This document shows positions 23,027 through 33,059 of a stretch of DNA of 43,023 nucleotides, piece after piece. The first letter of the stretch is position 1. Each line of letters begins with the position of its first letter. The stretch is from a virus. The notes under the pieces are model-generated. The model was given only the letters and a program-made list of their open reading frames with translations. It searched no databases and had not been told where the DNA came from. A program made the translations under genes and the position numbers. The stretch lies in the UHGV virus genome UHGV-0853564; one strand, given 5' to 3'.

Positions 23027-23406
23027 GAGAATAGTTACGTTGCCGTTGTGATTCTTCAGGCAGGGTTGTGCCTTTATTCTTATTACTTGGTAACTAAAGG
23101 GCAGGCCTTAAGCCTGCCCAATAATCGTTACATTTTTACGGTTGCGAATCTACGGCACATTAAGAAAATCAGATACTTAAGAGATATGCCGCCGGTGAGA
23201 ATAGAGCTTGCCCAGGGCAACCGGAGATACTTAGGGAGGAAAGTTACGATAATTCTTATGTTCAGTAAACTTTCGCTTAACACTTTGCTTGCGCTGCGCG
23301 CAACTGCGTTTTAAGCGGTTTTACAAGGTGAACAGGAATCAAAGTAACTAAGATATAGAAGCACCTTAAACGAAGATTTCCATAATGTCAATAGGTGCGA
23401 TTATGT

Positions 23407-23620: not shown

Positions 23621-23777
23621 AGTGGCCGAGCGTATCGGGGTTACTCGTCGAACGCTGAATAACTGGTTAAAGAGTGGGAAGTTCCCGGATTGCTGTATTC
23701 GCATTATGGGCCGCCGTCAGCCTGGCACATTTGACCCGGAGAAAGTGGAAGCGTGGATTAAGGAGAACGTGAAATGA
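23607..23777 (+). CDS. small HTH DNA-binding protein (AlpA/excisionase-like)
   Basis: MTQNEVAERIGVTRRTLNNWLKSGKFP is a typical HTH; AAGGAG RBS. Confidence 0.5.
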   Translation: MTQNEVAERIGVTRRTLNNWLKSGKFPDCCIRIMGRRQPGTFDPEKVEAWIKENVK

Positions 23778-24007
23778 CCGAGTTCCAGTCACGCGTATTT
23801 ACGGCAGTCGTTTCATTAACGCGTAAAAAAGGTTCGTGCAGCGTTATGGACTTGCGCCGTAGTTATTTTAGGTACTATAGTTCCGCCATTATTGAAGCGT
23901 CGTTACGTGTGCTGGTTAAATCTGGCGTCGTGAAAAATGTTGGCGGGAAATATAGTGCTGTTGCTGAAGTTCGCGGAATGACCGCTACTTTAGAAGACCT
24001 GGAATAA
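23774..24007 (+). CDS. hypothetical protein ending ...TLEDLE
   Basis: ORF track; ATGA overlap with upstream gene. Confidence 0.45.
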   Translation: MTEFQSRVFTAVVSLTRKKGSCSVMDLRRSYFRYYSSAIIEASLRVLVKSGVVKNVGGKYSAVAEVRGMTATLEDLE

Positions 24008-24064
24008 AAGAAAGCCCCGACGTTAGAGCGCCGAGGCCAAATTACTTGCTGAAGGAAATACAAC

Positions 24065-26305
24065 ATGTCCGATGTAATTTTATCCTACTCGTGGTCTCGT
24101 CGCAACGCGCGGGCGGAGAAAAAGGATATAAACGTCAGAACCACACACACGGCAACACTGGACGACCTGAAAGAGTTAATCCAGCCGCTCGATGTTGTGC
24201 GAGATGGGGTTAACCCGAAGACAGCGCCAGGCTATATTACTGCCGCGTGCGACTCTACGCACAGCACCGTAAAAGACCCGGAAACTGGAGACTTTAAGCA
24301 GGCGCGTAAAGGCTTCTTCTATCGCTGTGATGCGTCTGTAAGCAAATCGTCGCTGGCGTACCTGGATTTCGACAGCGCAACGCCGGAAGAGTACCAGGAA
24401 GCTGTGCGCCTGGTTAAGCGCAGCCGCCAGGCGATGTGCCTCTATACCACGGCATCTCATACCGAGGAGTCACCGCGCTTTCGCGTCGTCATGCCGCTGA
24501 CCCGCCCGGTTGAAGGCGGTGACATCATCCGTGTTCGTCATGGGTTGCTGGAACACTTCTTCAAAGGCATGGGCGCCGACCGCAGCGGGTTTACCCTGTC
24601 GCAGCCGATGTATCTGCCCCCGGTTGGCTCTACCGTTATCTGGTCGCGGCGCAACGACCTGATTGACCCGGACGAATTACTGGAAGGCATCCCCGCCGTT
24701 GACGTTAGCAGCGCATCGGATTACCAGATACCGGAAGAACTGCGCACCGCGTTTACTGATGCGTTCGAAGCACTGGCGTTCGAATACGGCGGCATCATGA
24801 CGCCGCGCGGCCTTAAGATGCCAGCTACGCCGGAACACGCAGAAAACTACAGCGACCCTACGCCGCGCCCGGACGACTTCCTGCTGTGCTTCCCGCGAGA
24901 GGGCTACGAAGCGCCGAACGTAACCATGATTCACGACACCGACATTACGGCAACCGAAGGTATGTCGCCGAAAGAGGTGTGGAAGTATGCGTGCGATGCG
25001 ACCGGGCTGCCGTTCAGTGAAGTCGCCGAGGCTATCGGATGGGGTGCGCGTGAATCTGTTTCATGCAGCCTCGACGACCTGGAAGATGACGAGGACTCAG
25101 AGGAGGACGAGTTACCGGAGCCGGTAAAGGCTGATTTCGTCGTAGAAGGGTACATGCCGTCGGATTGTATCTGGGATATCGTCGGGGAGTCCGGCACGTA
25201 CAAATCATTCTATACGCTGGGGATGATGTACCTTAGCGCCGCCGGATACCGGTTTGCGGGGGCAGATACTCAGCGTTGCCACCATTTCTATATCGACGGT
25301 GAGGGTGGCGCGGCCACACGTACACGTATTGATGCGCTCGCGGCTAAATACGGCGCGGAAGGTAAAGATTATGTACACGTCATCGATATGGGCGAAGTCG
25401 GCAAACTGAAAAGCCTGATTAAGCTAATGCGCGAAACTGCTGGCGGCGAGCCTATCGGCATGGTTGCATTCGACACCCTTAACCAGACGCTGGCCCTGAC
25501 GATTGATAAGTTCGACGAGAACAGTTCATCAACGGCAATCGGTATGGGTAAAGTTATCGCAATCATGAAAGAAGTACGCGACGCGACTAAAGCTGCGGTA
25601 GGCGTTGCCCACCATACGCCGAAGGGGGGAAAGAAAGCCCGCGGCAGCGGGGCGTTGTATGCAGGCGTTGATGTGGAACTGACAATTGAACGTGCAACTG
25701 ACCGTCAGATAAACGTATACCACTCTAAATTTAAGCACGGGCCTCAGCAGAAAACGGTTGGCATGGTTCTGGAGTCGGTACAGTTCCGCGAAGCACCACC
25801 GCCGAAAGAGTACCGTGCAGTTGAGTTCCTCGGTAGCACAGAGGAATACGGCACAATCGTAAACCTCGACCTACCGGAGCCGCACAAGGCGCTTGTGTTG
25901 ATGCCGTGGGGATTCGAGCCGTTCAAGACTGACGAGGAGAAAGAGCGGGAAGAAGGGCTGACAAAGGAAGGTAAAGAAAACGTAAGGAATGCTGTAAAAC
26001 GTGGGAAGGATGAAGGGCGTAAGGAATCAATACTCGCCGCGCTGGAAGACCTGCAACAGTCCGACGACACCGGACGAGGTTTTACCCAACGGCAGATAGT
26101 AGCGAACTCAGGCGACCACGCCATCACCAACCACCATCTTGAGAAGATGCTGAAAGACGGTGAGTTGATGCTTGGATGCGATGTTAACGGTGAAGTTATA
26201 CCTGGTACCTACCGGATACCAGAAAAGATGGGTGACAGATTAAGGCCGAAGACAATATACGAACCGAATGAAATGTTGACAGTGACAGAGGAAGATTTGG
26301 AGTAG
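24065..26305 (+). CDS. primase-helicase: N-terminal AEP primase-polymerase-like domain plus P-loop NTPase
   Basis: AEP-like motifs YLDFD, TASH, RFRVVMP; Walker A GESGTYKS; 746 aa. Confidence 0.65.
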   Translation: MSDVILSYSWSRRNARAEKKDINVRTTHTATLDDLKELIQPLDVVRDGVNPKTAPGYITAACDSTHSTVKDPETGDFKQARKGFFYRCDASVSKSSLAYLDFDSATPEEYQEAVRLVKRSRQAMCLYTTASHTEESPRFRVVMPLTRPVEGGDIIRVRHGLLEHFFKGMGADRSGFTLSQPMYLPPVGSTVIWSRRNDLIDPDELLEGIPAVDVSSASDYQIPEELRTAFTDAFEALAFEYGGIMTPRGLKMPATPEHAENYSDPTPRPDDFLLCFPREGYEAPNVTMIHDTDITATEGMSPKEVWKYACDATGLPFSEVAEAIGWGARESVSCSLDDLEDDEDSEEDELPEPVKADFVVEGYMPSDCIWDIVGESGTYKSFYTLGMMYLSAAGYRFAGADTQRCHHFYIDGEGGAATRTRIDALAAKYGAEGKDYVHVIDMGEVGKLKSLIKLMRETAGGEPIGMVAFDTLNQTLALTIDKFDENSSSTAIGMGKVIAIMKEVRDATKAAVGVAHHTPKGGKKARGSGALYAGVDVELTIERATDRQINVYHSKFKHGPQQKTVGMVLESVQFREAPPPKEYRAVEFLGSTEEYGTIVNLDLPEPHKALVLMPWGFEPFKTDEEKEREEGLTKEGKENVRNAVKRGKDEGRKESILAALEDLQQSDDTGRGFTQRQIVANSGDHAITNHHLEKMLKDGELMLGCDVNGEVIPGTYRIPEKMGDRLRPKTIYEPNEMLTVTEEDLE

Positions 26306-26316
26306 GTAAAAAAGAA

Positions 26317-26333
26317 AGGGGCGTTAAGCCCCT
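26317..26333. terminator. hairpin aggggc-gttaa-gcccct between convergent genes
   Basis: Overlaps the stop codon of the minus-strand XRE gene; U-rich tract follows on minus transcript. Confidence 0.45.
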
Positions 26334-26539
26334 TCACCGAACGCCAGCCACTTGGCGTCTACTTCCAGCACTTCCGCCAGTTTAAACAGCGTCGCCGGGC
26401 GGACGTCCTGAGTTACACCGAGCGCAAGCTGGTTAATCGCGCCCTGGGAAACGCCAGCCAGAACGGCCAGACGGCGCTGGGAGATGCCGAGTTCTTTACG
26501 GCGTTGTTCTACACGGATGCCTAGTTCAGATGGTTGCAT
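26324..26539 (-). CDS. XRE-family HTH transcriptional regulator (Cro/CI-like)
   Basis: LGISQRRLAVLAGVSQGAINQLALG is a canonical HTH; only minus-strand gene in the rightward module; AAGGAG RBS. Confidence 0.7.
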   Translation of the reverse strand: MQPSELGIRVEQRRKELGISQRRLAVLAGVSQGAINQLALGVTQDVRPATLFKLAEVLEVDAKWLAFGEGA

Positions 26540-26566
26540 ATCAATTACTCCTTAGTTAGTTGATAT

Positions 26567-26585
26567 GTGAATAGTACCATATTAA
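26567..26585 (-). promoter_or_regulatory. GAATAGT element upstream of XRE gene
   Basis: gtgaatagtaccatattaa; TACTATTCA about 29 nt upstream of ATG 26539 on minus strand; also readable as TTGATA-N17-TAATTA on plus. Confidence 0.45.
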
Positions 26586-26603
26586 TTATTTTAGAAAAGC
26601 CCA

Positions 26604-26632
26604 TTGACACGTGAATAGTTTGCTATTATAGT
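26604..26632 (+). promoter_or_regulatory. sigma70-like promoter TTGACA-N17-TATAGT with GAATAGT dyad in spacer
   Basis: Perfect -35, 17-nt spacer containing tgaatagtttgctatt; ~30 nt upstream of ATG 26665. Confidence 0.6.
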
Positions 26633-26664
26633 CAGCACATACCAAACGAGAGGAGAGAAACAAA

Positions 26665-26814
26665 ATGACCAATAACCGCAAAGCAAAAATTCTGTTAGGA
26701 CTTGATATTGCCTTTGGGACTAAAGAAACAGCGCGCTACCGGGTAAGCAACAACCGCGTTGGCTTCTTCGACAAGTCCACTGGCCAGTTAGTTAAAACCG
26801 TTAAATATAAATAA
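26665..26814 (+). CDS. small basic protein (49 aa), paralog of 28181..28339
   Basis: GAGAGGAGAG RBS; N-terminus MTNNRKAKILL and RVSNN motif shared with the second copy. Confidence 0.45.
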   Translation: MTNNRKAKILLGLDIAFGTKETARYRVSNNRVGFFDKSTGQLVKTVKYK

Positions 26815-26829
26815 ACAGGAGAAAGAAAA

Positions 26830-27339
26830 ATGTTAGAGAAATTCTTAGTATTACTGGAACGTTTCGTAGTTGCCCATGAACTGATTGCGGCGAACAGTGC
26901 GAAACGTCCTGCGCCCCAAACTGAGCGCGCAGGTGAAATGCTTGTAGACGTGTCGGTTACGGGAGAGGTACTTGAAGTCGACCCAGGCACTGGCGTCGGG
27001 AAAGAAATCCCGGTGGAAGGTGAAGACATCGTCGACACACAACCGGCAGAAGAAGAGAAGCAGAAACGCAATCCACGTAAAGCTAAAGTAGAGGAACCGA
27101 CTCCAGAGCCTGAAGAAGAGAAGGAAGAAGTCGATTACCAGTCTCTGCGCGACCAGATTCAGGCTATTGACGATGCAATTAACGAAGGTCCGAGCGATGC
27201 CGCGTGCGATGATTCCGATGAACTGCTGGAAGAGTTCACCGGTAAGAAGATGAAGATTGCCGCGATTAAAGACGAAGACTTGGCTGAATACCTGGAACGC
27301 CTGACGGCAATCAAGAACAAGTATTTCGAAGAAGAATAA
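26830..27339 (+). CDS. highly acidic early protein (candidate DNA mimic)
   Basis: 169 aa with long runs of E/D (EEEKQKRNPRKAKVEEPTPEPEEEKEEVDYQ, DDSDELLEEF); AGGAG RBS. Confidence 0.6.
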   Translation: MLEKFLVLLERFVVAHELIAANSAKRPAPQTERAGEMLVDVSVTGEVLEVDPGTGVGKEIPVEGEDIVDTQPAEEEKQKRNPRKAKVEEPTPEPEEEKEEVDYQSLRDQIQAIDDAINEGPSDAACDDSDELLEEFTGKKMKIAAIKDEDLAEYLERLTAIKNKYFEEE

Positions 27340-27346
27340 CTATCTG

Positions 27347-27362
27347 GCGGCCTTCGGGCCGC
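27347..27362 (+). terminator. stem-loop GCGGCC-UUCG-GGCCGC with conserved downstream leader
   Basis: Perfect stem with UUCG tetraloop; followed by tttaactgagggtcggaattATG, similar to 30763..30788. Confidence 0.4.
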
Positions 27363-27382
27363 TTTAACTGAGGGTCGGAATT

Positions 27383-27772
27383 ATGAAATACGAAGAAATG
27401 AGCGATTTTGAAATTAATTGTGCGGTGGCAGCCGCATTAGATTTAAATGAACATTTGTTCTTCCCGTCTGGCGTCGAATACCTTGATAGTGATACCGATG
27501 ATTCAGACATGGGGCCCATATGGCAAACAAGAATGCCGTTTGTTAAAGGTTTTAGACCGTATAATGGTAATTTATTTAACCCGTGCAACAACATAGATAT
27601 TGCGTGGCAAATTATTACTCAAAATCATATATCGATTGAATGCGTTACAGTTAACCGGCACACGTTTACGTACCGCGCATATCACTCTGCATCTTTCACC
27701 AAAAGTACGCACGAAAACCCCCTACGCGCCGCGATGATTGTCTTCCTTAAAATGCAGGAGGCAAAGAAATGA
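27383..27772 (+). CDS. hypothetical protein in AT-rich segment
   Basis: 129 aa; markedly AT-rich compared with neighbours. Confidence 0.5.
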   Translation: MKYEEMSDFEINCAVAAALDLNEHLFFPSGVEYLDSDTDDSDMGPIWQTRMPFVKGFRPYNGNLFNPCNNIDIAWQIITQNHISIECVTVNRHTFTYRAYHSASFTKSTHENPLRAAMIVFLKMQEAKK

Positions 27773-28041
27773 TTTACCAACTCTACCGCGCCGTAGACAG
27801 GCGAGATAACACAGAGGCGCTATGGCTGTTGCGTGCACCGTCAGGTGCGCACCAGATGGAAGAGATGGCGTATTTAGGTAAAGTACCGCGGCCTAAAGAT
27901 ATAGGCCGTCACGTGTCGCAGATTAAGCGCACGACTTTTGCCAAACCTGACTTTTATGTCTTCGAGTCGATGTATGGATGGGCCTTACATTGCGACCATA
28001 AGACACGGCATTTAATCGACCAGTGGGAGAACAGGGTATGA
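27769..28041 (+). CDS. hypothetical protein
   Basis: ORF track; ATGA overlaps both sides. Confidence 0.45.
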   Translation: MIYQLYRAVDRRDNTEALWLLRAPSGAHQMEEMAYLGKVPRPKDIGRHVSQIKRTTFAKPDFYVFESMYGWALHCDHKTRHLIDQWENRV

Positions 28042-28184
28042 TTTACTGGGCGATATTTACTTACACTAACGCCACGGCTACAGAGCACAGCCGATACTTG
28101 GACGTAGAGGATGCATACGCAGCATACGATAATCTTGATTTTGATACTTTTGACGATGCTTGGGTGGAGAGGGTAGAAGAATGA
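28038..28184 (+). CDS. small acidic hypothetical protein (48 aa)
   Basis: ATG 28038 overlapping upstream stop; below track cutoff. Confidence 0.3.
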   Translation: MIYWAIFTYTNATATEHSRYLDVEDAYAAYDNLDFDTFDDAWVERVEE

Positions 28185-28339
28185 CGAACCGTAAAGCGCG
28201 TTTTCTATTTGTTAAACGTAACCAGCCTTTTCGAGTAAGCAACTCGACTTGGCTGATCATCTTCAACCGTAGCGGCGACACGTGCGCCTATAAACGCAAA
28301 ACACGTAAAGTTAAATGGGGCGGGAGTTTAAGAGCATGA
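28181..28339 (+). CDS. small basic protein (52 aa), paralog of 26665..26814
   Basis: MTNRKARFLFV...RVSNS; stop overlaps start of nuclease gene. Confidence 0.4.
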   Translation: MTNRKARFLFVKRNQPFRVSNSTWLIIFNRSGDTCAYKRKTRKVKWGGSLRA

Positions 28340-29784
28340 AACTAAAAGAACGCGGCGGCAATAATGATGTACACGCTTTACTGTCGCCGTCTGGTGCTAA
28401 AAAGTGGCTTACATGCAGTGCATCACTGGCCTGCGAGAAAGATATTCCTAACACGTCAGGTAAAGCCGCCGTATTAGGCACGGCTATGCACACGATAGCG
28501 GAGATGCACCTTAACCAGTATATCAAAGGCACTGCGTTGCCGTTAGAGCGTGAGGTCGGCGCTTACGTGCTGGACGAGGGTAAAGGCCAGATTAAGGCGC
28601 TAAACAGTCCGATGAAAGGCGCGGTACTGATTACGGCTGACATGATTGAGCAGGTGCGCAAGTACACCGACTACTGCAAAGAGATTATCGATGTAGCGAC
28701 TTACACCAAACTGGAAATGCGTGTCAATCTTACCGAGGTATTGCATCCTGGGTATATGTTTCGTGTTGCTGGTGAGCAGGGTGATGGCAACGCCGGGGTT
28801 TTTAAAACTGTGGAGACATTCGGAACAGCCGACTTAGTGGCGGTTATAGAAGGCTTTACGGGTGAAAGTAACTCAGCGATGCTCATTATCGGCGACCTGA
28901 AAACTGGGCGGCATCGTGTCGAAGCGAAAGAAAACAAACAGCTTATGCTTTACGCGCTCGGTGTTTATCGCCGACTCAAGAGGCGTTATAACATCACAGT
29001 AGTGCGCCTGGTTATCTTCCAGCCGTATGCTGGCGGAGCGTCTGAGTGGGACATCTCAGTTGAAGGTCTGGAACTGTTCGCCAAGTTCGCACAGAAACGT
29101 GCACTGTTGGCACTCGATGCGTATTTCCGTGGCAAGAAGAACCTGAAAGCGTCGGACTTCAAACCGTCGGTAGATGGTTGTCAGTGGTGTCGGTTCTCTG
29201 AACAGTGCGCCGCGCGTACAAAGACGGTTAACGCTGTGTTGGCGGAAGAACTGGAGGACAATACAGATGTATATCGTACAGCCGTAGAACGTGTGGCTAA
29301 GTTCTGCAACGACGCGGACTATATGAGCGTTTGGGAGGATGTTCAGCCGAGTGATATTCTTAAGTTGCTACCTGACGACACAGATTTACCTAAGAAGCCA
29401 GTGAGAGATGACGACTTTGCGCTGGAACTGACACCGGAGCAACTCGTAGCTGAGTATGAGAAGTTGCCGCTGTTGCGCCAGCACATCGACAAGGTCGAGA
29501 AAGCGATGGCTGCCGCGTTGCATTCCGGTAAGAAAGTGCCGGGGTACAAGCTGGTTGAAGGTCGTCCGGGTAATCGTGCGTGGAAGGACGCCGAGGCGGT
29601 ATACGAGAAATATGGTTACAAGCTGACTAAAGAAGTGCTCATGACGCCAACTGAAGCGGTTAAAGTAATACCGGAAGAAGAACTGAAAGACTTTATTACC
29701 CGTAAGCAGGGCGCACCATGTGTCGCAACGGCGGACGACAAACGTCCTGAATGGAATCAGGTAACAGAGGAGGATTTAGAATGA
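28336..29784 (+). CDS. PD-(D/E)XK nuclease with Cys cluster (Cas4/RecB-like fold)
   Basis: N-terminal LLSPSGAKKWLTCSAS, GDLKTGR motif, C-terminal CQWCRFSEQC Cys cluster; GGGAG RBS before ATG 28336 (track start 28315). Confidence 0.6.
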   Translation: MKLKERGGNNDVHALLSPSGAKKWLTCSASLACEKDIPNTSGKAAVLGTAMHTIAEMHLNQYIKGTALPLEREVGAYVLDEGKGQIKALNSPMKGAVLITADMIEQVRKYTDYCKEIIDVATYTKLEMRVNLTEVLHPGYMFRVAGEQGDGNAGVFKTVETFGTADLVAVIEGFTGESNSAMLIIGDLKTGRHRVEAKENKQLMLYALGVYRRLKRRYNITVVRLVIFQPYAGGASEWDISVEGLELFAKFAQKRALLALDAYFRGKKNLKASDFKPSVDGCQWCRFSEQCAARTKTVNAVLAEELEDNTDVYRTAVERVAKFCNDADYMSVWEDVQPSDILKLLPDDTDLPKKPVRDDDFALELTPEQLVAEYEKLPLLRQHIDKVEKAMAAALHSGKKVPGYKLVEGRPGNRAWKDAEAVYEKYGYKLTKEVLMTPTEAVKVIPEEELKDFITRKQGAPCVATADDKRPEWNQVTEEDLE

Positions 29785-30017
29785 TTCGTAGGATGTTCAG
29801 GGTGCTTGGCGGACTTGTAGCGTTTTTAAGCTACCACTTTATGATGTTGCCGGTTTATTCTCTGCTTTTTCCATTAATAGCCTATCTTGCGATTAAGCAT
29901 AAAACCGTAGAACTGGACGAGTTAATGGAGGTTAAGGAGATGAAGTTTGTTCAGAATTTGGAGTGGCCTTTCGAATACGTATTGATAGTTGAGAAAATAA
30001 CTGGCTGGAAGGGTTGA
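29781..30017 (+). CDS. small membrane protein
   Basis: GAGGAGGA RBS; hydrophobic segments LGGLVAFLSYHFMMLPVYSLLFPLIAYLAI. Confidence 0.45.
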   Translation: MIRRMFRVLGGLVAFLSYHFMMLPVYSLLFPLIAYLAIKHKTVELDELMEVKEMKFVQNLEWPFEYVLIVEKITGWKG

Positions 30018-30042
30018 CACCTGAATAGTTAGCTATTATATT
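30014..30042 (+). promoter_or_regulatory. sigma70-like promoter TTGACA-N17-TATATT with GAATAGT dyad in spacer
   Basis: Same architecture as 26604..26632; upstream of SSB-like gene; palindrome AATACGTATT at ~29965. Confidence 0.55.
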
Positions 30043-30096
30043 TCTAATCACTGGCCGGGCAGATTCCCGGAGTAAACTGAAAAGCGAGAAATTAAG

Positions 30097-30726
30097 ATGG
30101 GTATTAAACTGAATCTGCGTAAAGTAAACACTGCTTGGGTTAACGTATTCGAACGTGCTGCCGACTCTGAGGACAAGAAAACCGGTAAACTTATTAAGGG
30201 CAAATATCAGGTTACGGTTCTTATGCAGCCCGACCACCCTCAAATCGACGCGCTTTATGATACCGCGCTGGAAGTTGTAACAGAGGCAATCGGGGCGGCT
30301 GCTGCCGAGAAATGGATGAAGGCCAACTACGGCGTAGACCACCACGCGGACAAATGCTGCGTCCGTGACCTGGCAATGCGCGATAATCCGATTGAGGATT
30401 TTGAAGAGGGTCTGTATTTCCGCGCTACTAACAACCGCCAACCGGTGATTATGACATCTGCTAAAGGTGAAAAACAAACCGAGCCTGATTTCAACATCGA
30501 CGGGCAGGAAGTAGAAGGCGAGCAGGTATATAGCGGGTGTGTGGCTAACGTATCTGTAGAGTTGTGGTGGCACAAAGAATGGAAAAACCTGTGCGCTACC
30601 ATCCTCGGCATCAAGTATGCGGGCGAAGGTAAACGCTTCGGAGGCTCCAGTGTAGTAGCGAGCACCGACGACCTGGAAGACGACGAAGAAGATGAAGCAC
30701 CGCGCCGCGAACGTCGCCGCCGCTAA
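30097..30726 (+). CDS. ssDNA-binding protein-like (phage SSB family) with acidic C-terminal tail
   Basis: N-terminal LRKVNTAWVNVFE pattern typical of a phage SSB family; C-terminal TDDLEDDEEDE acidic tail. Confidence 0.55.
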   Translation: MGIKLNLRKVNTAWVNVFERAADSEDKKTGKLIKGKYQVTVLMQPDHPQIDALYDTALEVVTEAIGAAAAEKWMKANYGVDHHADKCCVRDLAMRDNPIEDFEEGLYFRATNNRQPVIMTSAKGEKQTEPDFNIDGQEVEGEQVYSGCVANVSVELWWHKEWKNLCATILGIKYAGEGKRFGGSSVVASTDDLEDDEEDEAPRRERRRR

Positions 30727-30745
30727 TATCTGAATCAATTTAACT

Positions 30746-30785: not shown

Positions 30786-33059
30786 ATGAGTTACCTGTTC
30801 TTAGACTTTGAAACATTCTCCGAAGCCGATTTAAAGAAAGTCGGTTCCTACGCTTACGCCGAACATCCAACTACAGAAGTGCTTATCTGTACCTATGCTT
30901 TTGACGACGAGCCTGTGCAGGTATGGGATTGCACGGACGGCAGCGACATGCCAGGGGATTTGCACCGCGCACTGCGCCGCCTGGTTAAGCCAAACAGCCG
31001 CATCAAGATGGTGTGGCACAACGGTGGACTTTTCGATAGGCTCATCATGAAGCACTGCTGGGGTTTCGATATCCCCGTAAGCAACACCATTGATACGATG
31101 ATTTGGGCGTTTCGTCACGCGCTGCCGGGTTCACTTGATGCACTGTGTGAAGTGCTGGGCGTATCCGCGGACAACGCGAAAGATAAACGCGGTAAGGCGC
31201 TGATTCAGCGTTTCTCTAAACCGACGCCGAAGAACTACAAAATTCGCCGCTACACTGCTGAAACTCACCCTGACGAATGGGCGCTGTTCATCAAATACGC
31301 CGTGAGCGACATCACTGCGATGCGTGAAGTCTTCCATAAACTGCCGCGTTGGGGTAACTCCGAGTTCGAAGACCGTGTACTGGAACTGGACCAGTTAATC
31401 AACGACAGAGGCTTCTTTGTTGACACGGCTCTTGCTGAGGCGGCGGTAGCGGCAGTTGAACGCCACAAGCAAGAGCTAAAAAACGAGGCCCGCGCGAAAT
31501 TCGGGGGGAAACTAACGGGCAAAGATTTCCTGCCAATACTTCGGGAGCTGGCACCGGCCTACAATATTTATAATGCGCAGAAAGCAACGCTCGAAGGTTT
31601 GCTAGAGGACGATGACCTGCCTGATGATGCGCGTACAATCATTGAGATGCGCCTCGGCGCGGCCTCCACGGCGTCGACAAAATACAAACCGCTCCTGCTA
31701 GGACGGTCCAAAGACGGACGCCGCCGCGGTTGCATCCAGTACGGTGGGGCAAAGCGCACTTTACGATTTGCGGGTAAAGGGTTCCAGCCGCAGAACCTGT
31801 CGCGCGGGTACTACCATGACGACCCAACTAATGAGGAAAAGAAACTTGTACGTCAGCCGTGGGAGTCCGACGAAGACTGGAACCGCAGGCTTAACCCGCT
31901 ATCATTTGGTATCAATTTGCTTTTAAAGGGTCGGGCGCATCGCCGTTTTGATATATCTAAACTAACGGCCTCAACTGTCCGCAGTTGCATCATCCCGGAA
32001 AAAGGCAATAAGTTGCTCGTTGCCGACTACTCAAACGTGGAAGGGCGTGGGTTAGCCTGGACGGCGGGGGAGGCGTCTGCCCTTGAGACGTTCCGCGCGG
32101 GGATTGATATTTATTGCGCCACTGCGGGCAAGATGTTTGGTATGGACCCTATAGAACTGAAAGCCACCCGTAAAGACCTACGACAGGTCGGGAAATGTTG
32201 CGAGCTCGGCCTCGGCTACGAGGGGGGTGTAGGGGCCTTCATGACTATGGCTAAAACTTACGGGCTGGACCTCTTTAAAATGACGGAGACAATGCGGGGG
32301 ACATTCCCTGACCATATATGGGCCGCCACTGCCCGAGGCTATGAATGGGCGCGGATCCAGGAGGCTAAGCGGCCTCCAAAACCTGGTAAAAAGGATGAAC
32401 GGGCCTCTTACGTGCTGCCTAAGGAAGTGTGGCGTACCTGTGATGCTATCAAGCGCATGTGGCGGGAGGCCCATCCGGAAACAGTGAAATTCTGGAACGA
32501 CCTTAAGGATTCAGTGATTGCCGCAATCAGAAATCCTGGGCGAGAGTTTTGGGCGGGGGCCAGGGTCCGCCTCAACGGCGACAGAGCTATTCGCATCTGG
32601 CGTACTAAAGAGAAAGACAGACAAGGTAACTTTGTGCCAGGTTGGTGGTTGTGCGTGGAATTGCCGTCCGGGCGCATCATGTCCTACCCTGGTATAGGTT
32701 TAAGCGTCACTAAAGAGACCGACGAGGACGGGCGCGTAACAACTAACGTTCGCATTAAATACCAGGGCGAAAATCAGACTACCCGCCAGTGGACAACTTT
32801 GTACACCCACGGCGGGAAATTGTGTGAAAACATTATCCAGGCGTTGTGTCGTGATTTACTGGTTAACGGACTCCTGACGGTCGAGGCAGCAGGCTACCCA
32901 ATTGTACTTCACGTACATGACGAATGTGTCGCCGAAACGCCAGACACACCGGAGTACACGGTTAAAGAGATGGGTGATCTGCTATGCTCATTACCTGAAT
33001 GGGCTAAAGGGTTCCCGTTAACATGGGCTGGGGAAGAGGTGTACCGTTATGCCAAGTAA
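30786..33059 (+). CDS. DNA polymerase, family A (Pol I-like) with 3'-5' exonuclease domain
   Basis: Exo motif LDFETFS; polymerase motifs ADYSNVEGR (motif A-like), RQVGKCCELGLGYEGG (motif B-like), LHVHDECV (motif C-like). Confidence 0.8.
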   Translation: MSYLFLDFETFSEADLKKVGSYAYAEHPTTEVLICTYAFDDEPVQVWDCTDGSDMPGDLHRALRRLVKPNSRIKMVWHNGGLFDRLIMKHCWGFDIPVSNTIDTMIWAFRHALPGSLDALCEVLGVSADNAKDKRGKALIQRFSKPTPKNYKIRRYTAETHPDEWALFIKYAVSDITAMREVFHKLPRWGNSEFEDRVLELDQLINDRGFFVDTALAEAAVAAVERHKQELKNEARAKFGGKLTGKDFLPILRELAPAYNIYNAQKATLEGLLEDDDLPDDARTIIEMRLGAASTASTKYKPLLLGRSKDGRRRGCIQYGGAKRTLRFAGKGFQPQNLSRGYYHDDPTNEEKKLVRQPWESDEDWNRRLNPLSFGINLLLKGRAHRRFDISKLTASTVRSCIIPEKGNKLLVADYSNVEGRGLAWTAGEASALETFRAGIDIYCATAGKMFGMDPIELKATRKDLRQVGKCCELGLGYEGGVGAFMTMAKTYGLDLFKMTETMRGTFPDHIWAATARGYEWARIQEAKRPPKPGKKDERASYVLPKEVWRTCDAIKRMWREAHPETVKFWNDLKDSVIAAIRNPGREFWAGARVRLNGDRAIRIWRTKEKDRQGNFVPGWWLCVELPSGRIMSYPGIGLSVTKETDEDGRVTTNVRIKYQGENQTTRQWTTLYTHGGKLCENIIQALCRDLLVNGLLTVEAAGYPIVLHVHDECVAETPDTPEYTVKEMGDLLCSLPEWAKGFPLTWAGEEVYRYAK

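What the first reader, a model, noticed from the sequence alone, without database searches (positions are those of the whole stretch)
23774..29784. Shared C-terminal T-x-EDLE motif on three otherwise unrelated replication-module proteins
The 77-aa protein (ends ...TATLEDLE), the primase-helicase (...TVTEEDLE) and the PD-(D/E)XK nuclease (...QVTEEDLE) all terminate with the same acidic peptide, encoded by different codons. The SSB-like protein has a related TDDLEDDEEDE tail. This suggests a common docking tag for one partner, analogous to acidic C-terminal tails that recruit proteins in other replisomes.
Basis: seen in the sequence. Interest (0 to 1): 0.5.

Follow-up and report, generated by a model that had tools for sequence, protein, structure and literature searches.

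The report
Shared acidic docking tag on replication proteins
Several unrelated DNA-replication proteins of this E. coli phage carry the same short acidic peptide, and related phages keep the arrangement but each with its own version of the peptide, which points to a common "address tag" that gathers the replication machinery around one partner, probably the DNA polymerase.

Summary
The window is a Kagunavirus-like siphophage. Of all six-frame ORFs, only three end in [DE]L[DE], and all three end in EDLE: a 77-aa winged-helix protein, the primase-helicase and the DUF2800 PD-(D/E)XK nuclease. A shuffle test gives P about 4e-5. The same [ST]-x-[DE]-D-L-E core also lies inside the primase-helicase linker and at the start of the disordered tail of the gp2.5-like SSB.

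The motif is conserved while its codons and flanking residues drift. It also changes in step between proteins of the same genome:
- TEEDLE in Kaguna- and Jerseyviruses
- ATDxDL+1-3 in Cornell- and Dhillonviruses
- W..DEV in Chivirus
- ..DDDEI on five proteins of Aeromonas phage BUCT551
- ..LI on four proteins of phage Phobos
- DFDD[LIV]S in APSE-like prophages
- AEDDFDxL in a Staphylococcus phage

The family A polymerase carried the tag in none of the sampled modules.

Best reading: a co-evolving short linear docking motif that tethers replisome and recombination proteins to a phage-encoded hub. The hub is most likely PolA, by elimination and by analogy with the T7 gp4 and gp2.5 tails binding gp5. 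Binding itself was not tested. I found no published description. I rate it a new variant of a known kind.

The parts
23774..24007 (+). 77-aa protein (PHROG 5169, function unknown): a winged-helix domain (residues 1-64) followed by a flexible tagged tail.
   Evidence: AF2 mean pLDDT 85.9. Residues 1-60 score above 90; the 61-70 and 71-77 blocks average 61 and 52, with 66-69 below 50. Foldseek against the PDB gives only generic winged-helix matches, none with E <= 0.001. Thirty homologues at 83-99% identity keep ..[LS]E[DE]L[EA].
23987..24004 (+). C-terminal tag TLEDLE of the 77-aa protein.
   Evidence: The Jerseyvirus orthologue has TPEDLE with a diverged linker.
24065..26305 (+). Primase-helicase (746 aa): N-terminal primase, AAA_25 helicase domain from aa 352.
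   Evidence: Pfam AAA_25 E = 1e-15. PHROG 3228, replicative helicase-primase, E = 6e-300.
25067..25084 (+). Internal copy of the tag, SLDDLE (aa 335-340), in the acidic linker between the primase and helicase domains.
   Evidence: The same position is conserved across lineages: CDEEDLADEE, CQDEDLMDEP, CTDEDLDDDP and CTDADLDNEP. In APSE-like primases D[DE]F[ED]DLT sits near aa 313.
26285..26302 (+). C-terminal tag TEEDLE of the primase-helicase.
   Evidence: In relatives the peptide is conserved with synonymous codon variation.
26830..27339 (+). 169-aa acidic protein (PHROG 3127, function unknown). Possible additional tag carrier: KDEDLAE at 27268-27288. It ends KYFEEE.
   Evidence: A DEDL or EDDL motif is present in 17 of 17 orthologues, e.g. 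KPEPEDDLDDEEP in Cornell-like phages. The proteins at the equivalent position in Casjensviridae carry the lineage tail..GEEDDV..NDDDI..EDGLI..DDMLA. Its role in this window is uncertain.
28315..29784 (+). DUF2800 PD-(D/E)XK (Cas4/RecB-like) nuclease. The real start is probably 28336.
   Evidence: Pfam DUF2800 E = 2.8e-62 and PDDEXK_1 E = 1.5e-8. PHROG 69, exonuclease. A 100% identical database protein is 482 aa. The orthologue Bas14_0045 (44-45% identity) is an experimentally active nuclease with a disordered C-terminal region.
29764..29781 (+). C-terminal tag TEEDLE of the nuclease.
   Evidence: In 117 homologues the last five positions are E117, E114, D117, L117 and E117, while position -8 varies.
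30097..30726 (+). gp2.5-like (DUF2815 / Enc34-type) SSB and annealing protein, with a disordered tail.
   Evidence: Pfam PF10991 E = 4.7e-11. PHROG 112. In the AF2 model the OB domain (1-181) is confident and the tail is below 50 pLDDT, apart from one helical turn at 190-193.
30661..30678 (+). Tag copy STDDLE (aa 189-194) at the start of the SSB tail. It is followed by an acidic run and then a basic run.
   Evidence: D192, L193 and D195 are invariant in 47 SSBs of 45-97% identity, while the rest of the tail varies widely in length and sequence. The motif follows the lineage, e.g. SSB VATDSDLDD beside nuclease ATDSDLED.
30786..33059 (+). Family A DNA polymerase with a 3'-5' exonuclease domain. 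Inferred receptor or hub. It has no tag.
   Evidence: Pfam DNA_pol_A and PHROG 17. The PolA C-terminus shows no tag in any sampled lineage. In BUCT551 five other module proteins carry it. Conserved basic clusters at K132-R155 and R312-R340 are untested candidate sites.

Best explanation
The peptide [ST]-x-[DE]-D-L-E is a short linear docking motif. It sits in flexible regions of at least four replication or recombination proteins of this phage:
- the C-terminus of a small winged-helix protein
- the interdomain linker and the C-terminus of the primase-helicase
- the C-terminus of the DUF2800 nuclease
- the start of the tail of the gp2.5-like SSB

Each copy offers a few acidic residues and one hydrophobic residue, probably as a single helical turn capped by the Ser or Thr. 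All copies would be read by the same phage-encoded receptor. That would concentrate the helicase-primase, SSB, nuclease and an accessory DNA-binding protein at the fork. The most likely receptor is the family A DNA polymerase, with the tags binding a basic surface as the T7 gp4 and gp2.5 tails bind gp5.

Shown here: the motif exists, is non-random, is conserved at protein level, lies in low-confidence (flexible) segments, and co-varies between co-resident proteins across many lineages.

Inferred: that it binds anything, and that the partner is PolA.
For: Non-randomness. Only three ORFs in the window end in [DE]L[DE], and all three end EDLE. The shuffle test gives P = 4e-5.

Protein-level selection.
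- The last five residues are invariant or nearly so in 117 nuclease homologues, while positions -6 and -8 vary.
- Synonymous codon and stop-codon changes are abundant.
- DL-x-D is invariant inside an otherwise highly variable SSB tail.

Specificity.
- In 33 Guernsey/Dhillon loci (1042 ORFs) the tail pattern hits only the 77-aa protein (8), the primase-helicase (26) and the nuclease (31), plus 3 weak others.
- In the APSE-like group (1317 ORFs, 280,236 aa) [DE]F[DEQ][DE][LIV][ST] occurs 121 times. All hits are in primase, nuclease or SSB. None is in any other protein.

Co-variation.
- Guernsey/Dhillon lineages.
- Chivirus ST-101..EWEDEV..DDDDEV..WEDEV..EEDDV.
- BUCT551: five proteins end ..[DE]3-4I. 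Phobos: four end ..LI. AchV4 tails were also compared.
- Staphylococcus phage: SAEDDFDKL beside SAAEDDFDEL. Xfas53 also shares a motif.
- Bacteroides phage: LSDF. Paenibacillus phage: SLE[QD]EFA. Rhodobacter phage: DDFD[DE]L.
- Permutation tests: nuclease against primase-helicase p = 5e-5, and nuclease against SSB p = 1.5e-4, with PolA controls not significant. A local-match test over 30 lineages gave p <= 2e-5.

Flexibility. AF2 gives low pLDDT for the tails, with a one-turn helix on the motif.

A phage-encoded receptor. Phages of the same hosts (E. coli and Salmonella) use different tags: TEEDLE, ATDxDL and WEDEV.

PolA as hub. It is in every sampled module whose flank reached it and shows no tag there. 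The SSB belongs to the T7 gp2.5 family. T7 gp4 (..NDTDF) and gp2.5 (..DGDF) share a tail that binds basic patches of gp5 (PMC12593628; PMC12339929 and PDB 6P7E).
Against: - No binding experiment or complex model could be run. The available structure tool predicts single chains and accepts only native sequences.
- PolA as hub rests on elimination and analogy only. PolA is too diverged from solved polymerases for the T7 basic patches to be mapped by sequence.
- The permutation p-values treat lineages as independent, although they fall into a few deep blocks.
- A few lineages break the rule. In L078 and L086 the SSB ends ..GMPM or ..GMPY while the nuclease ends ..AFKEEN. L081 and L085 match weakly.
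- Unlike T7, the tag does not end in an aromatic residue.
- The orthologous nuclease of Bas14 tolerates truncating mutations, so at least that tagged protein is dispensable in the laboratory.
Confidence: 0.6

Rival explanations
1. The motif is a shared docking tag, but the receptor is the DNA-binding groove of the gp2.5-like SSB rather than the polymerase. The tagged nuclease and helicase would hold an SSB molecule by its groove and hand it to the ssDNA they produce. The SSB's own copy would mediate SSB-SSB contacts or self-inhibition.
For: In crystals of Enc34 ORF6, of other DUF2815 proteins and of T7 gp2.5, the acidic C-terminal segment lies in the OB groove of a neighbouring molecule (PMC5686142). 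Nuclease and SSB are the pair that shares the motif most consistently across phyla. That fits an exonuclease plus annealase pair. The duf2800-gp2.5-polA module has been described (PMC8093625).
Against: In Enc34 ORF6 the last 11 residues are disordered and not in the groove. Judged from the near-identical ST-101 SSB and the Enc34 cloning primer ending ..WDEDEV, those residues are the shared W..DEV tag itself. AF2 does not dock the STDDLE segment of this SSB confidently onto its own OB domain: pLDDT is about 50, with both flanks below 50. The SSB itself carries the tag in all lineages, whereas PolA does not.
Confidence: 0.2
2. The tails are independent acidic 'DNA-mimic' or autoinhibitory segments. 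Each folds back on the DNA-binding surface of its own protein to tune ssDNA against dsDNA specificity. There is no common partner.
For: Removing the acidic tail of Enc34 ORF6 lets it bind dsDNA as well as ssDNA, and the T7 gp2.5 and T4 gp32 tails modulate DNA affinity (PMC5686142). All tagged proteins bind DNA.
Against: Generic electrostatic mimicry does not need the same residue order, the same hydrophobic residue and the same distance to the C-terminus in unrelated folds. It also does not predict lineage-specific co-variation, such as ..DDDEI on five proteins in one phage and ..LI on four in another, or exact matches such as AESLI/AESLI and GALA/GALA.
Confidence: 0.1
3. The tag mimics a host signal and recruits a host protein, for example a partner of the host SSB C-terminus (DFDDDIPF) or the beta clamp. 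Alternatively it is a degron for a host protease.
For: The APSE-like and Staphylococcus versions (DDFDD[IL]S, AEDDFDEL) resemble the bacterial SSB tip (background knowledge). T4 uses shared C-terminal tails on gp43, gp33 and gp55 to bind its clamp (background knowledge).
Against: Phages infecting the same enterobacterial hosts use quite different tags: TEEDLE, ATDxDL+1-3 and WEDEV. A conserved host receptor would not favour this. The window's tag ends in Glu, not in the Pro-Phe or hydrophobic carboxy terminus required by SSB-Ct pockets, clamp-binding motifs (QL[SD]LF) or ssrA-like degrons. Internal copies cannot act as C-terminal degrons.
Confidence: 0.07
4. The similarity is a coincidence of acidic composition, or a by-product of DNA-level constraints such as overlapping ribosome-binding sites or a recent short duplication.
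For: The nuclease tail codons GAGGAGG form a Shine-Dalgarno sequence 7 nt upstream of the next ORF, whose ATG overlaps the nuclease stop. The primase-helicase and nuclease tags are identical at 15 of 18 nt.
Against: The shuffle test gives P = 4e-5. Orthologues with AGT GAA GAA GAT TTA GAA TAA have no such SD and no overlap, yet keep the peptide. The primase-helicase and the 77-aa protein have no downstream gene within SD or start-overlap range of the tag on that strand. The pattern recurs with different peptides across phyla.
Confidence: 0.02

Closest known systems
Phage T7 acidic C-terminal tails of gp4 helicase-primase and gp2.5 SSB, which dock on basic patches of gp5 DNA polymerase
   Same: The SSB is in the same family (gp2.5-like OB fold; Pfam PF10991) and the polymerase is family A. 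Helicase-primase and SSB share a short acidic peptide with one hydrophobic residue (T7..NDTDF and ..DGDF). The tails are disordered. Documented roles are polymerase loading, exchange, processivity and SSB displacement.
   Different: The peptide is T-x-EDLE ending in Glu, not an aromatic terminus. It is also present on a PD-(D/E)XK nuclease and a winged-helix protein. In other lineages it is on an SNF2-type helicase and a small acidic protein, whereas T7 exonuclease gp6 and endonuclease gp3 lack the tail. There are internal as well as C-terminal copies. The SSB here ends in a basic run. No thioredoxin-type processivity factor is evident. Binding to PolA is not shown.
Bacterial SSB C-terminal tip (..DFDDDIPF) as an interaction hub
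   Same: An acidic and hydrophobic short linear motif on a disordered tail organises genome-maintenance proteins. The APSE-like and Staphylococcus variants (DDFDD[IL]S, AEDDFDEL) look similar.
   Different: The logic is inverted. In bacteria one tagged protein (SSB) is read by many partners with pockets. Here many proteins carry the tag, which implies one reader. This SSB is not the homotetrameric bacterial type, and the tag is not at its C-terminus.
Phage T4 clamp-binding C-terminal tails (gp43, gp33 and gp55 binding gp45) and beta-clamp binding motifs
   Same: Unrelated proteins share a terminal peptide that docks on one hub (background knowledge).
   Different: Those motifs are hydrophobic (QL[SD]LF-like) and the hub is a sliding clamp. 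The tag here is acidic, and no clamp was seen among the replication genes examined.
Two-component phage recombinases (lambda Exo-Beta, RecE-RecT) and the described duf2800-gp2.5-polA module
   Same: An exonuclease and an annealing or SSB protein are encoded side by side and are expected to cooperate physically. The gene module itself has been described (PMC8093625). The Bas14 orthologue is an active nuclease.
   Different: In those systems the exonuclease binds a folded domain of its annealase. A shared, co-varying peptide tag on nuclease, SSB and primase-helicase has not, as far as I could find, been reported.

Membership tests
T7-type acidic-tail docking (gp4 and gp2.5 tails binding gp5) | SSB of the gp2.5 / T7-type OB-fold family with a disordered acidic tail | tested here: met
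   Pfam Enc34_ssDNA-bd E = 4.7e-11. PHROG 112, Gp2.5-like. In the AF2 model the OB domain is confident and the tail is below 50 pLDDT.
T7-type acidic-tail docking (gp4 and gp2.5 tails binding gp5) | Helicase-primase and SSB carry the same short acidic and hydrophobic peptide | tested here: met
   Primase-helicase has SLDDLE (internal) and TEEDLE (C-terminal). SSB has STDDLE. The peptide co-varies across lineages.
T7-type acidic-tail docking (gp4 and gp2.5 tails binding gp5) | The peptide is the extreme C-terminus and ends in an aromatic residue (Phe) | tested here: not met
   The tags end Leu-Glu. The SSB copy is internal and the SSB ends RRERRRR. T7 control..DGDF and ..DTDF.
T7-type acidic-tail docking (gp4 and gp2.5 tails binding gp5) | Family A DNA polymerase encoded in the same module | tested here: met
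   Gene at 30786-33059, with Pfam DNA_pol_A and exonuclease domains. PolA was found in all sampled modules whose flank reached it.
T7-type acidic-tail docking (gp4 and gp2.5 tails binding gp5) | The tail physically binds basic patches on the polymerase | not testable with these tools
   No multimer prediction or binding assay is available. Only conserved basic clusters in PolA could be listed. Sequence mapping onto T7 gp5 was not possible.
Bacterial SSB-Ct hub | Tag at the extreme C-terminus of a homotetrameric bacterial-type SSB, ending ..IPF or ..LPF | tested here: not met
   The SSB is the gp2.5 type and ends in a basic run. The tag is on the partner proteins.
Clamp-binding motif (QL[SD]LF-like / T4 gp45-binding tails) | Hydrophobic consensus at the terminus and a clamp as reader | tested here: not met
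   TEEDLE has a single hydrophobic residue and does not fit the consensus. No clamp family was hit among the module proteins. Not every ORF in the window was scanned.
C-terminal degron (ssrA / ClpX C-motif type) | Non-polar extreme C-terminus that works only when terminal | tested here: not met
   The terminus is Glu. Conserved internal copies exist in the SSB and the primase-helicase linker.
Short linear motif (SLiM) in the general sense | A 3-10 residue conserved core in a disordered region, with variable flanks, recurring in unrelated proteins | tested here: met
   Low pLDDT tails. Conserved core with variable flanks. Recurrence in four unrelated folds.

The most novel reading that the evidence does not exclude
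The tag is a fast-evolving, genome-specific 'address code'. Nearly every replisome and recombination protein except the polymerase carries it, so the polymerase acts as an SSB-like hub in reverse. Divergence of the code (TEEDLE, WEDEV, DDDEI, ..LI and others) insulates each phage's replisome from those of co-infecting relatives and from the host. On this reading the tag would determine replisome compatibility and module exchange between phages. It would also be a ready-made set of orthogonal peptide-receptor pairs.
Probability: 0.25. Interest if true: 0.75.

Novelty: new variant of a known kind. Interest (0 to 1): 0.6.

Why it matters
The DUF2800 nuclease / gp2.5-like SSB / PolA module is one of the most widespread phage replication modules. 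The nuclease alone matched 1426 phage records, from Proteobacteria, Firmicutes and Bacteroidota. Its protein-protein wiring is uncharacterised, and the role of the nuclease in the phage life cycle is explicitly unknown.

A shared, co-varying tag gives a concrete and cheap hypothesis for how this replisome is assembled. It predicts which six residues to delete or swap. It extends the T7 tail-docking principle to nucleases, accessory helicases and small DNA-binding proteins. It also suggests that tag divergence limits cross-talk between related phages. The same proteins trigger bacterial defence systems (retron IX is triggered by the Bas14 nuclease), so knowing their complexes has practical interest.

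Tried and rejected
- Mapping the T7 gp5 basic patches onto this PolA by sequence. The PDB search aligned only residues about 396-480 to Pol I family members, so no mapping was possible.
- A chimeric polymerase-linker-peptide AF2 run. I did not attempt it.
- An unbiased test of all pairs within a genome against pairs between genomes (at least 3 of the last 4 residues identical). It gave only OR 2.4, p = 0.007. Orthologues inflate the between-genome background and the 77-aa protein fell under the length cut. I replaced it with family-resolved permutation tests.
- A literature search for 'EEDLE'. It matched 'needle'. Searches on DUF2800, DUF2815, Enc34 and T7 tails found no description of the shared tag.
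- Looking for a DUF2800/DUF2815 module without PolA, as a test of the hub inference. The Bacteroides, Paenibacillus and Rhodobacter phages sampled all encode PolA next to the pair, so the test was uninformative.
- The DNA-level explanation (an SD or start overlap in the nuclease tail). I considered and rejected it.
- Foldseek on the 77-aa protein. It gave only generic winged-helix matches, with no functional assignment.
Full report
**What the window is.**
The 8 kb around the finding is 88-92% identical at nucleotide level to E. coli, Shigella and Klebsiella siphophages labelled Kagunavirus, of the Guernseyvirinae. Genes diverge from about position 23,400, where the GC skew changes sign. The rightward arm is a replication and recombination module:
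- an HTH regulator
- a 77-aa protein (23774-24007)
- the primase-helicase (24065-26305; AAA_25; PHROG 'replicative helicase-primase')
- a leftward Cro/CI-type repressor
- a 169-aa acidic protein (26830-27339)
- NinX
- small ORFs
- a DUF2800 PD-(D/E)XK nuclease (28315-29784)
- a gp2.5-like DUF2815 SSB (30097-30726)
- a family A DNA polymerase (30786-33059)
- further on, an SNF2-type helicase

**Checking the observation.**
- In the scan of the window's 1467 six-frame ORFs, only these three end in [DE]L[DE]. Within ORFs of at least 60 aa, [DE]DLE occurs five times, all in four replication proteins. The two internal sites are SLDDLE (aa 335-340 of the primase-helicase) and STDDLE (aa 189-194 of the SSB).
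- Shuffling the last 30 residues of each of 77 gene-like ORFs gave three or more proteins with the same last four residues in 4e-5 of trials.
- The codons differ: Leu is CTG, TTG or TTA and the stops are TAA, TAG and TGA. The primase-helicase and nuclease tags are still identical at 15 of 18 nt.
- Among orthologues the peptide is kept through many synonymous changes, with 11 distinct tail DNAs in 13 primase-helicases.
- One DNA-level confounder exists. The nuclease codons GAGGAGG form an SD 7 nt upstream of the next ORF, whose ATG overlaps the nuclease stop. Orthologues that end AGT GAA GAA GAT TTA GAA TAA lack both features and keep the peptide.

**Conservation.**
- In 117 nuclease homologues (77-100% identity) the last five positions are E117, E114, D117, L117 and E117. 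Position -6 is T or S. Position -8 varies.
- Thirty homologues of the 77-aa protein keep the tail. The Jerseyvirus form has a diverged linker but still ends ..TPEDLE.
- In 47 SSBs of 45-97% identity, D192, L193 and D195 are invariant. The rest of the tail is an array of acidic and basic repeats that varies in length.
- The internal primase-helicase copy sits at the same place in all Guernseyvirinae and Dhillonvirus lineages: CSLDDLEDDE, CDEEDLADEE, CQDEDLMDEP, CTDEDLDDDP and CTDADLDNEP.
- AF2 models put the tags in low-confidence segments and give the motif a single helical turn. The 77-aa protein is a confident winged-helix domain (residues 1-64) with a flexible tail. In the SSB, the OB domain (1-181) is followed by a tail below 50 pLDDT, except around residues 190-196. 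Foldseek gave only generic winged-helix matches for the small protein.

**Co-variation between proteins of the same genome.**
This is the decisive evidence. I collected about 95 modules built around DUF2800 nuclease homologues and compared the tails of their proteins.

| Lineage | Tags on co-resident proteins |
|---|---|
| Kaguna/Jersey | TEEDLE, TE[EG]DLE, T[LP]EDLE |
| PhiSTP2 / Cornellvirus | primase-helicase ..SEEDDLEN; nuclease ..ATD[DS]DL[AE][ND]; SSB VATDSDLDD |
| Metagenomic lineage L021-L023 | ..ASDEDLNS; ..SDEDLS |
| Dhillonvirus (Bas14) | ..ATDDDLKD; ..ATDEDLSNE; SSB CSDEDLGD |
| Chivirus ST-101 | primase ..GEWEDEV; nuclease ..DDDDEV; SSB ..WEDEV; 139-aa protein ..GEEDDV |
| Aeromonas phage BUCT551 | primase, 118-aa protein, nuclease, SSB and SNF2-type helicase end ..DDEEI, ..NDDDI, ..DDDEI, ..DDDEI, ..EDDEI |
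| Phage Phobos | four proteins end ..LI |
| Achromobacter AchV4 | ..EALF, ..DDMLA, ..IDDLL, ..DDPLA |

In the APSE-like prophage group the motif is DFDD[LIV][ST]. The regex [DE]F[DEQ][DE][LIV][ST] occurs 121 times in 1317 ORFs (280,236 aa). Every hit is in the primase (internal, near aa 313), the nuclease or the SSB. Fine-scale matches also occur there, such as ..AAESLI beside ..DAESLI and ..QGALA beside ..AGALA.

The nuclease C-terminus also copies the SSB motif in phages of other phyla:
- Staphylococcus: SAEDDFDKL beside SAAEDDFDEL
- Xylella Xfas53: DFQDLS beside DFEDLS
- Bacteroides: ALSDFD beside GLSDFE
- Paenibacillus: SLEQEFAN beside SLEDEFAD
- Rhodobacter: DDFDDLD beside DDFDELED

Permutation tests show that same-genome tails resemble each other more than cross-lineage tails do:
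- nuclease against primase-helicase, p = 5e-5
- nuclease against SSB, p = 1.5e-4
- PolA C-termini as controls, not significant
- a local-match test over 30 lineages, p <= 2e-5

These p-values overstate independence, because the lineages fall into a few deep blocks. The qualitative pattern still holds: many different peptides, each shared within a genome. Exceptions exist. In L078 and L086 the nuclease and SSB tails do not match, and L081 and L085 match only weakly.

**Mechanism.**
A short conserved core in flexible regions recurs in unrelated folds and changes together in co-resident proteins. That is the signature of a short linear motif read by one co-evolving receptor.
- Phages of the same enterobacterial hosts use different tags. 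This argues for a phage-encoded receptor rather than a host one.
- Internal copies and an acidic terminus argue against a C-terminal degron.
- By elimination the best hub is the family A polymerase. It is in every sampled module whose flank reached it and shows no tag there. In BUCT551 the five tagged proteins leave PolA as the main large untagged protein of the module.
- The precedent is phage T7, whose SSB belongs to the same family. gp4 (..NDTDF) and gp2.5 (..DGDF) share an acidic tail. That tail binds the front and TBD basic patches of gp5. This supports polymerase loading, exchange, processivity and SSB displacement (PMC12593628; PMC12339929 with PDB 6P7E).
- PolA here has conserved basic clusters at K132-R155 and R312-R340. 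These are untested candidates.
- This PolA has a 3'-5' exonuclease domain but no recognisable 5' nuclease domain. Tethering the DUF2800 nuclease to it could couple primer removal or end resection to synthesis. This last point is inference.

**The main rival.**
The rival receptor is the SSB's own OB groove, which holds acidic tail segments in crystals of Enc34 ORF6, other DUF2815 proteins and gp2.5 (PMC5686142). Two observations weigh against it, both weakly.
- The last 11 residues of Enc34 ORF6 were disordered rather than bound. From its near-identical relative ST-101 and from the cloning primer, those residues are the shared W..DEV tag.
- AF2 does not dock STDDLE on this SSB.

I could run no binding test.

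**What is known.**
- The gene module duf2800-gp2.5-polA has been noted before (PMC8093625).
- The Enc34 SSB structure is solved.
- The Bas14 orthologue of the nuclease (44-45% identity; my locus L004) was recently shown to be an active PD-(D/E)XK nuclease with a disordered C-terminal region. It triggers retron IX. Truncating escape mutants are viable, and its role in the phage is stated to be unknown (bioRxiv 10.64898/2026.07.14.737667).
- I found no report of a shared, co-varying tag.

**Verdict.**
- The docking-tag interpretation is supported by comparative evidence. The partner, probably PolA, is inferred.
- It works like the T7 tail system. It fails one defining T7 feature, the aromatic extreme C-terminus, and it extends the principle to new protein classes. 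I therefore rate it a new variant of a known kind.
- Interest: 0.6.

Noticed in passing
window 29764-29790 (and ORF 29781-30017, +): The nuclease stop overlaps the ATG of a 78-aa hydrophobic, membrane-like ORF (GAATGA). The tag codons GAGGAGG form a Shine-Dalgarno sequence 7 nt upstream of that ATG, so the tag-coding DNA also serves translational coupling in this genome. Orthologues without this arrangement keep the peptide.
   Followed up: partly
window 30661-30726; SSBs of L002-L004, L021-L034: After the DL motif, the SSB tails of Guernseyvirinae and Dhillonviruses are arrays of one to three acidic-then-basic repeats (e.g. DEEDEAPRRERRRR; KRRDDDDEDEAPRKRRRR). They vary in number between close relatives and usually end in a basic run, which is unusual for an SSB. 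Their function is unknown.
   Followed up: partly
window 26830-27339: The 169-aa very acidic protein (annotated elsewhere as '13.88 kDa late protein') has its own conserved aromatic and acidic C-terminus: KYFEEE, KYYDIED, TYFELED or EFYDAE in relatives. It also has an internal DEDL motif. The proteins at the equivalent position in Casjensviridae carry the lineage tail.
   Followed up: partly
window 28315-29784: The nuclease here (482-489 aa) is about 55-70 aa longer than most close homologues (413-429 aa), which implies an insertion in this lineage. I did not map it. The annotated-style start is probably 28336 rather than 28315.
   Followed up: no
L007, L009, L013, L020 (about 1031-1032 aa); L025, L026 (1062 aa): PolA genes in some close relatives are about 300 aa longer than in the window (757 aa), with the same C-terminus. 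This suggests an intein or homing-endonuclease insertion. HNH genes also flank the nuclease in Cornellvirus Shemara.
   Followed up: no
window 29932-30738 (-): A 268-aa ORF antisense to the SSB gene is longer than the SSB ORF itself, so a naive longest-ORF gene caller masks the SSB. It is almost certainly spurious.
   Followed up: partly
L078, L079, L082, L086: These lineages are exceptions to the tag rule. The SSB tail ends ..NPITGMPM or ..NPLTGMPY and is Gln/Pro-rich rather than acidic, while the nuclease ends ..AEEAFKEEN. This may be a different docking solution.
   Followed up: no
L002/L003 primase-helicase C-terminus; Dhillonvirus nucleases: Some proteins carry tandem copies of the motif. 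Cornell-type primase-helicases end TDINDLEDSQPTSEEDDLEN, with two DL units. Dhillonvirus nucleases have an extra internal PTATDEDLGDD. This suggests multivalency.
   Followed up: no
L004 (phage TheodorHerzl / Bas14), gene bas14_0045: The orthologue of the window's nuclease is the experimentally identified trigger of a type IX retron defence system. Its loss is tolerated by the phage. The window's phage is therefore probably sensed by the same defence.
   Followed up: partly
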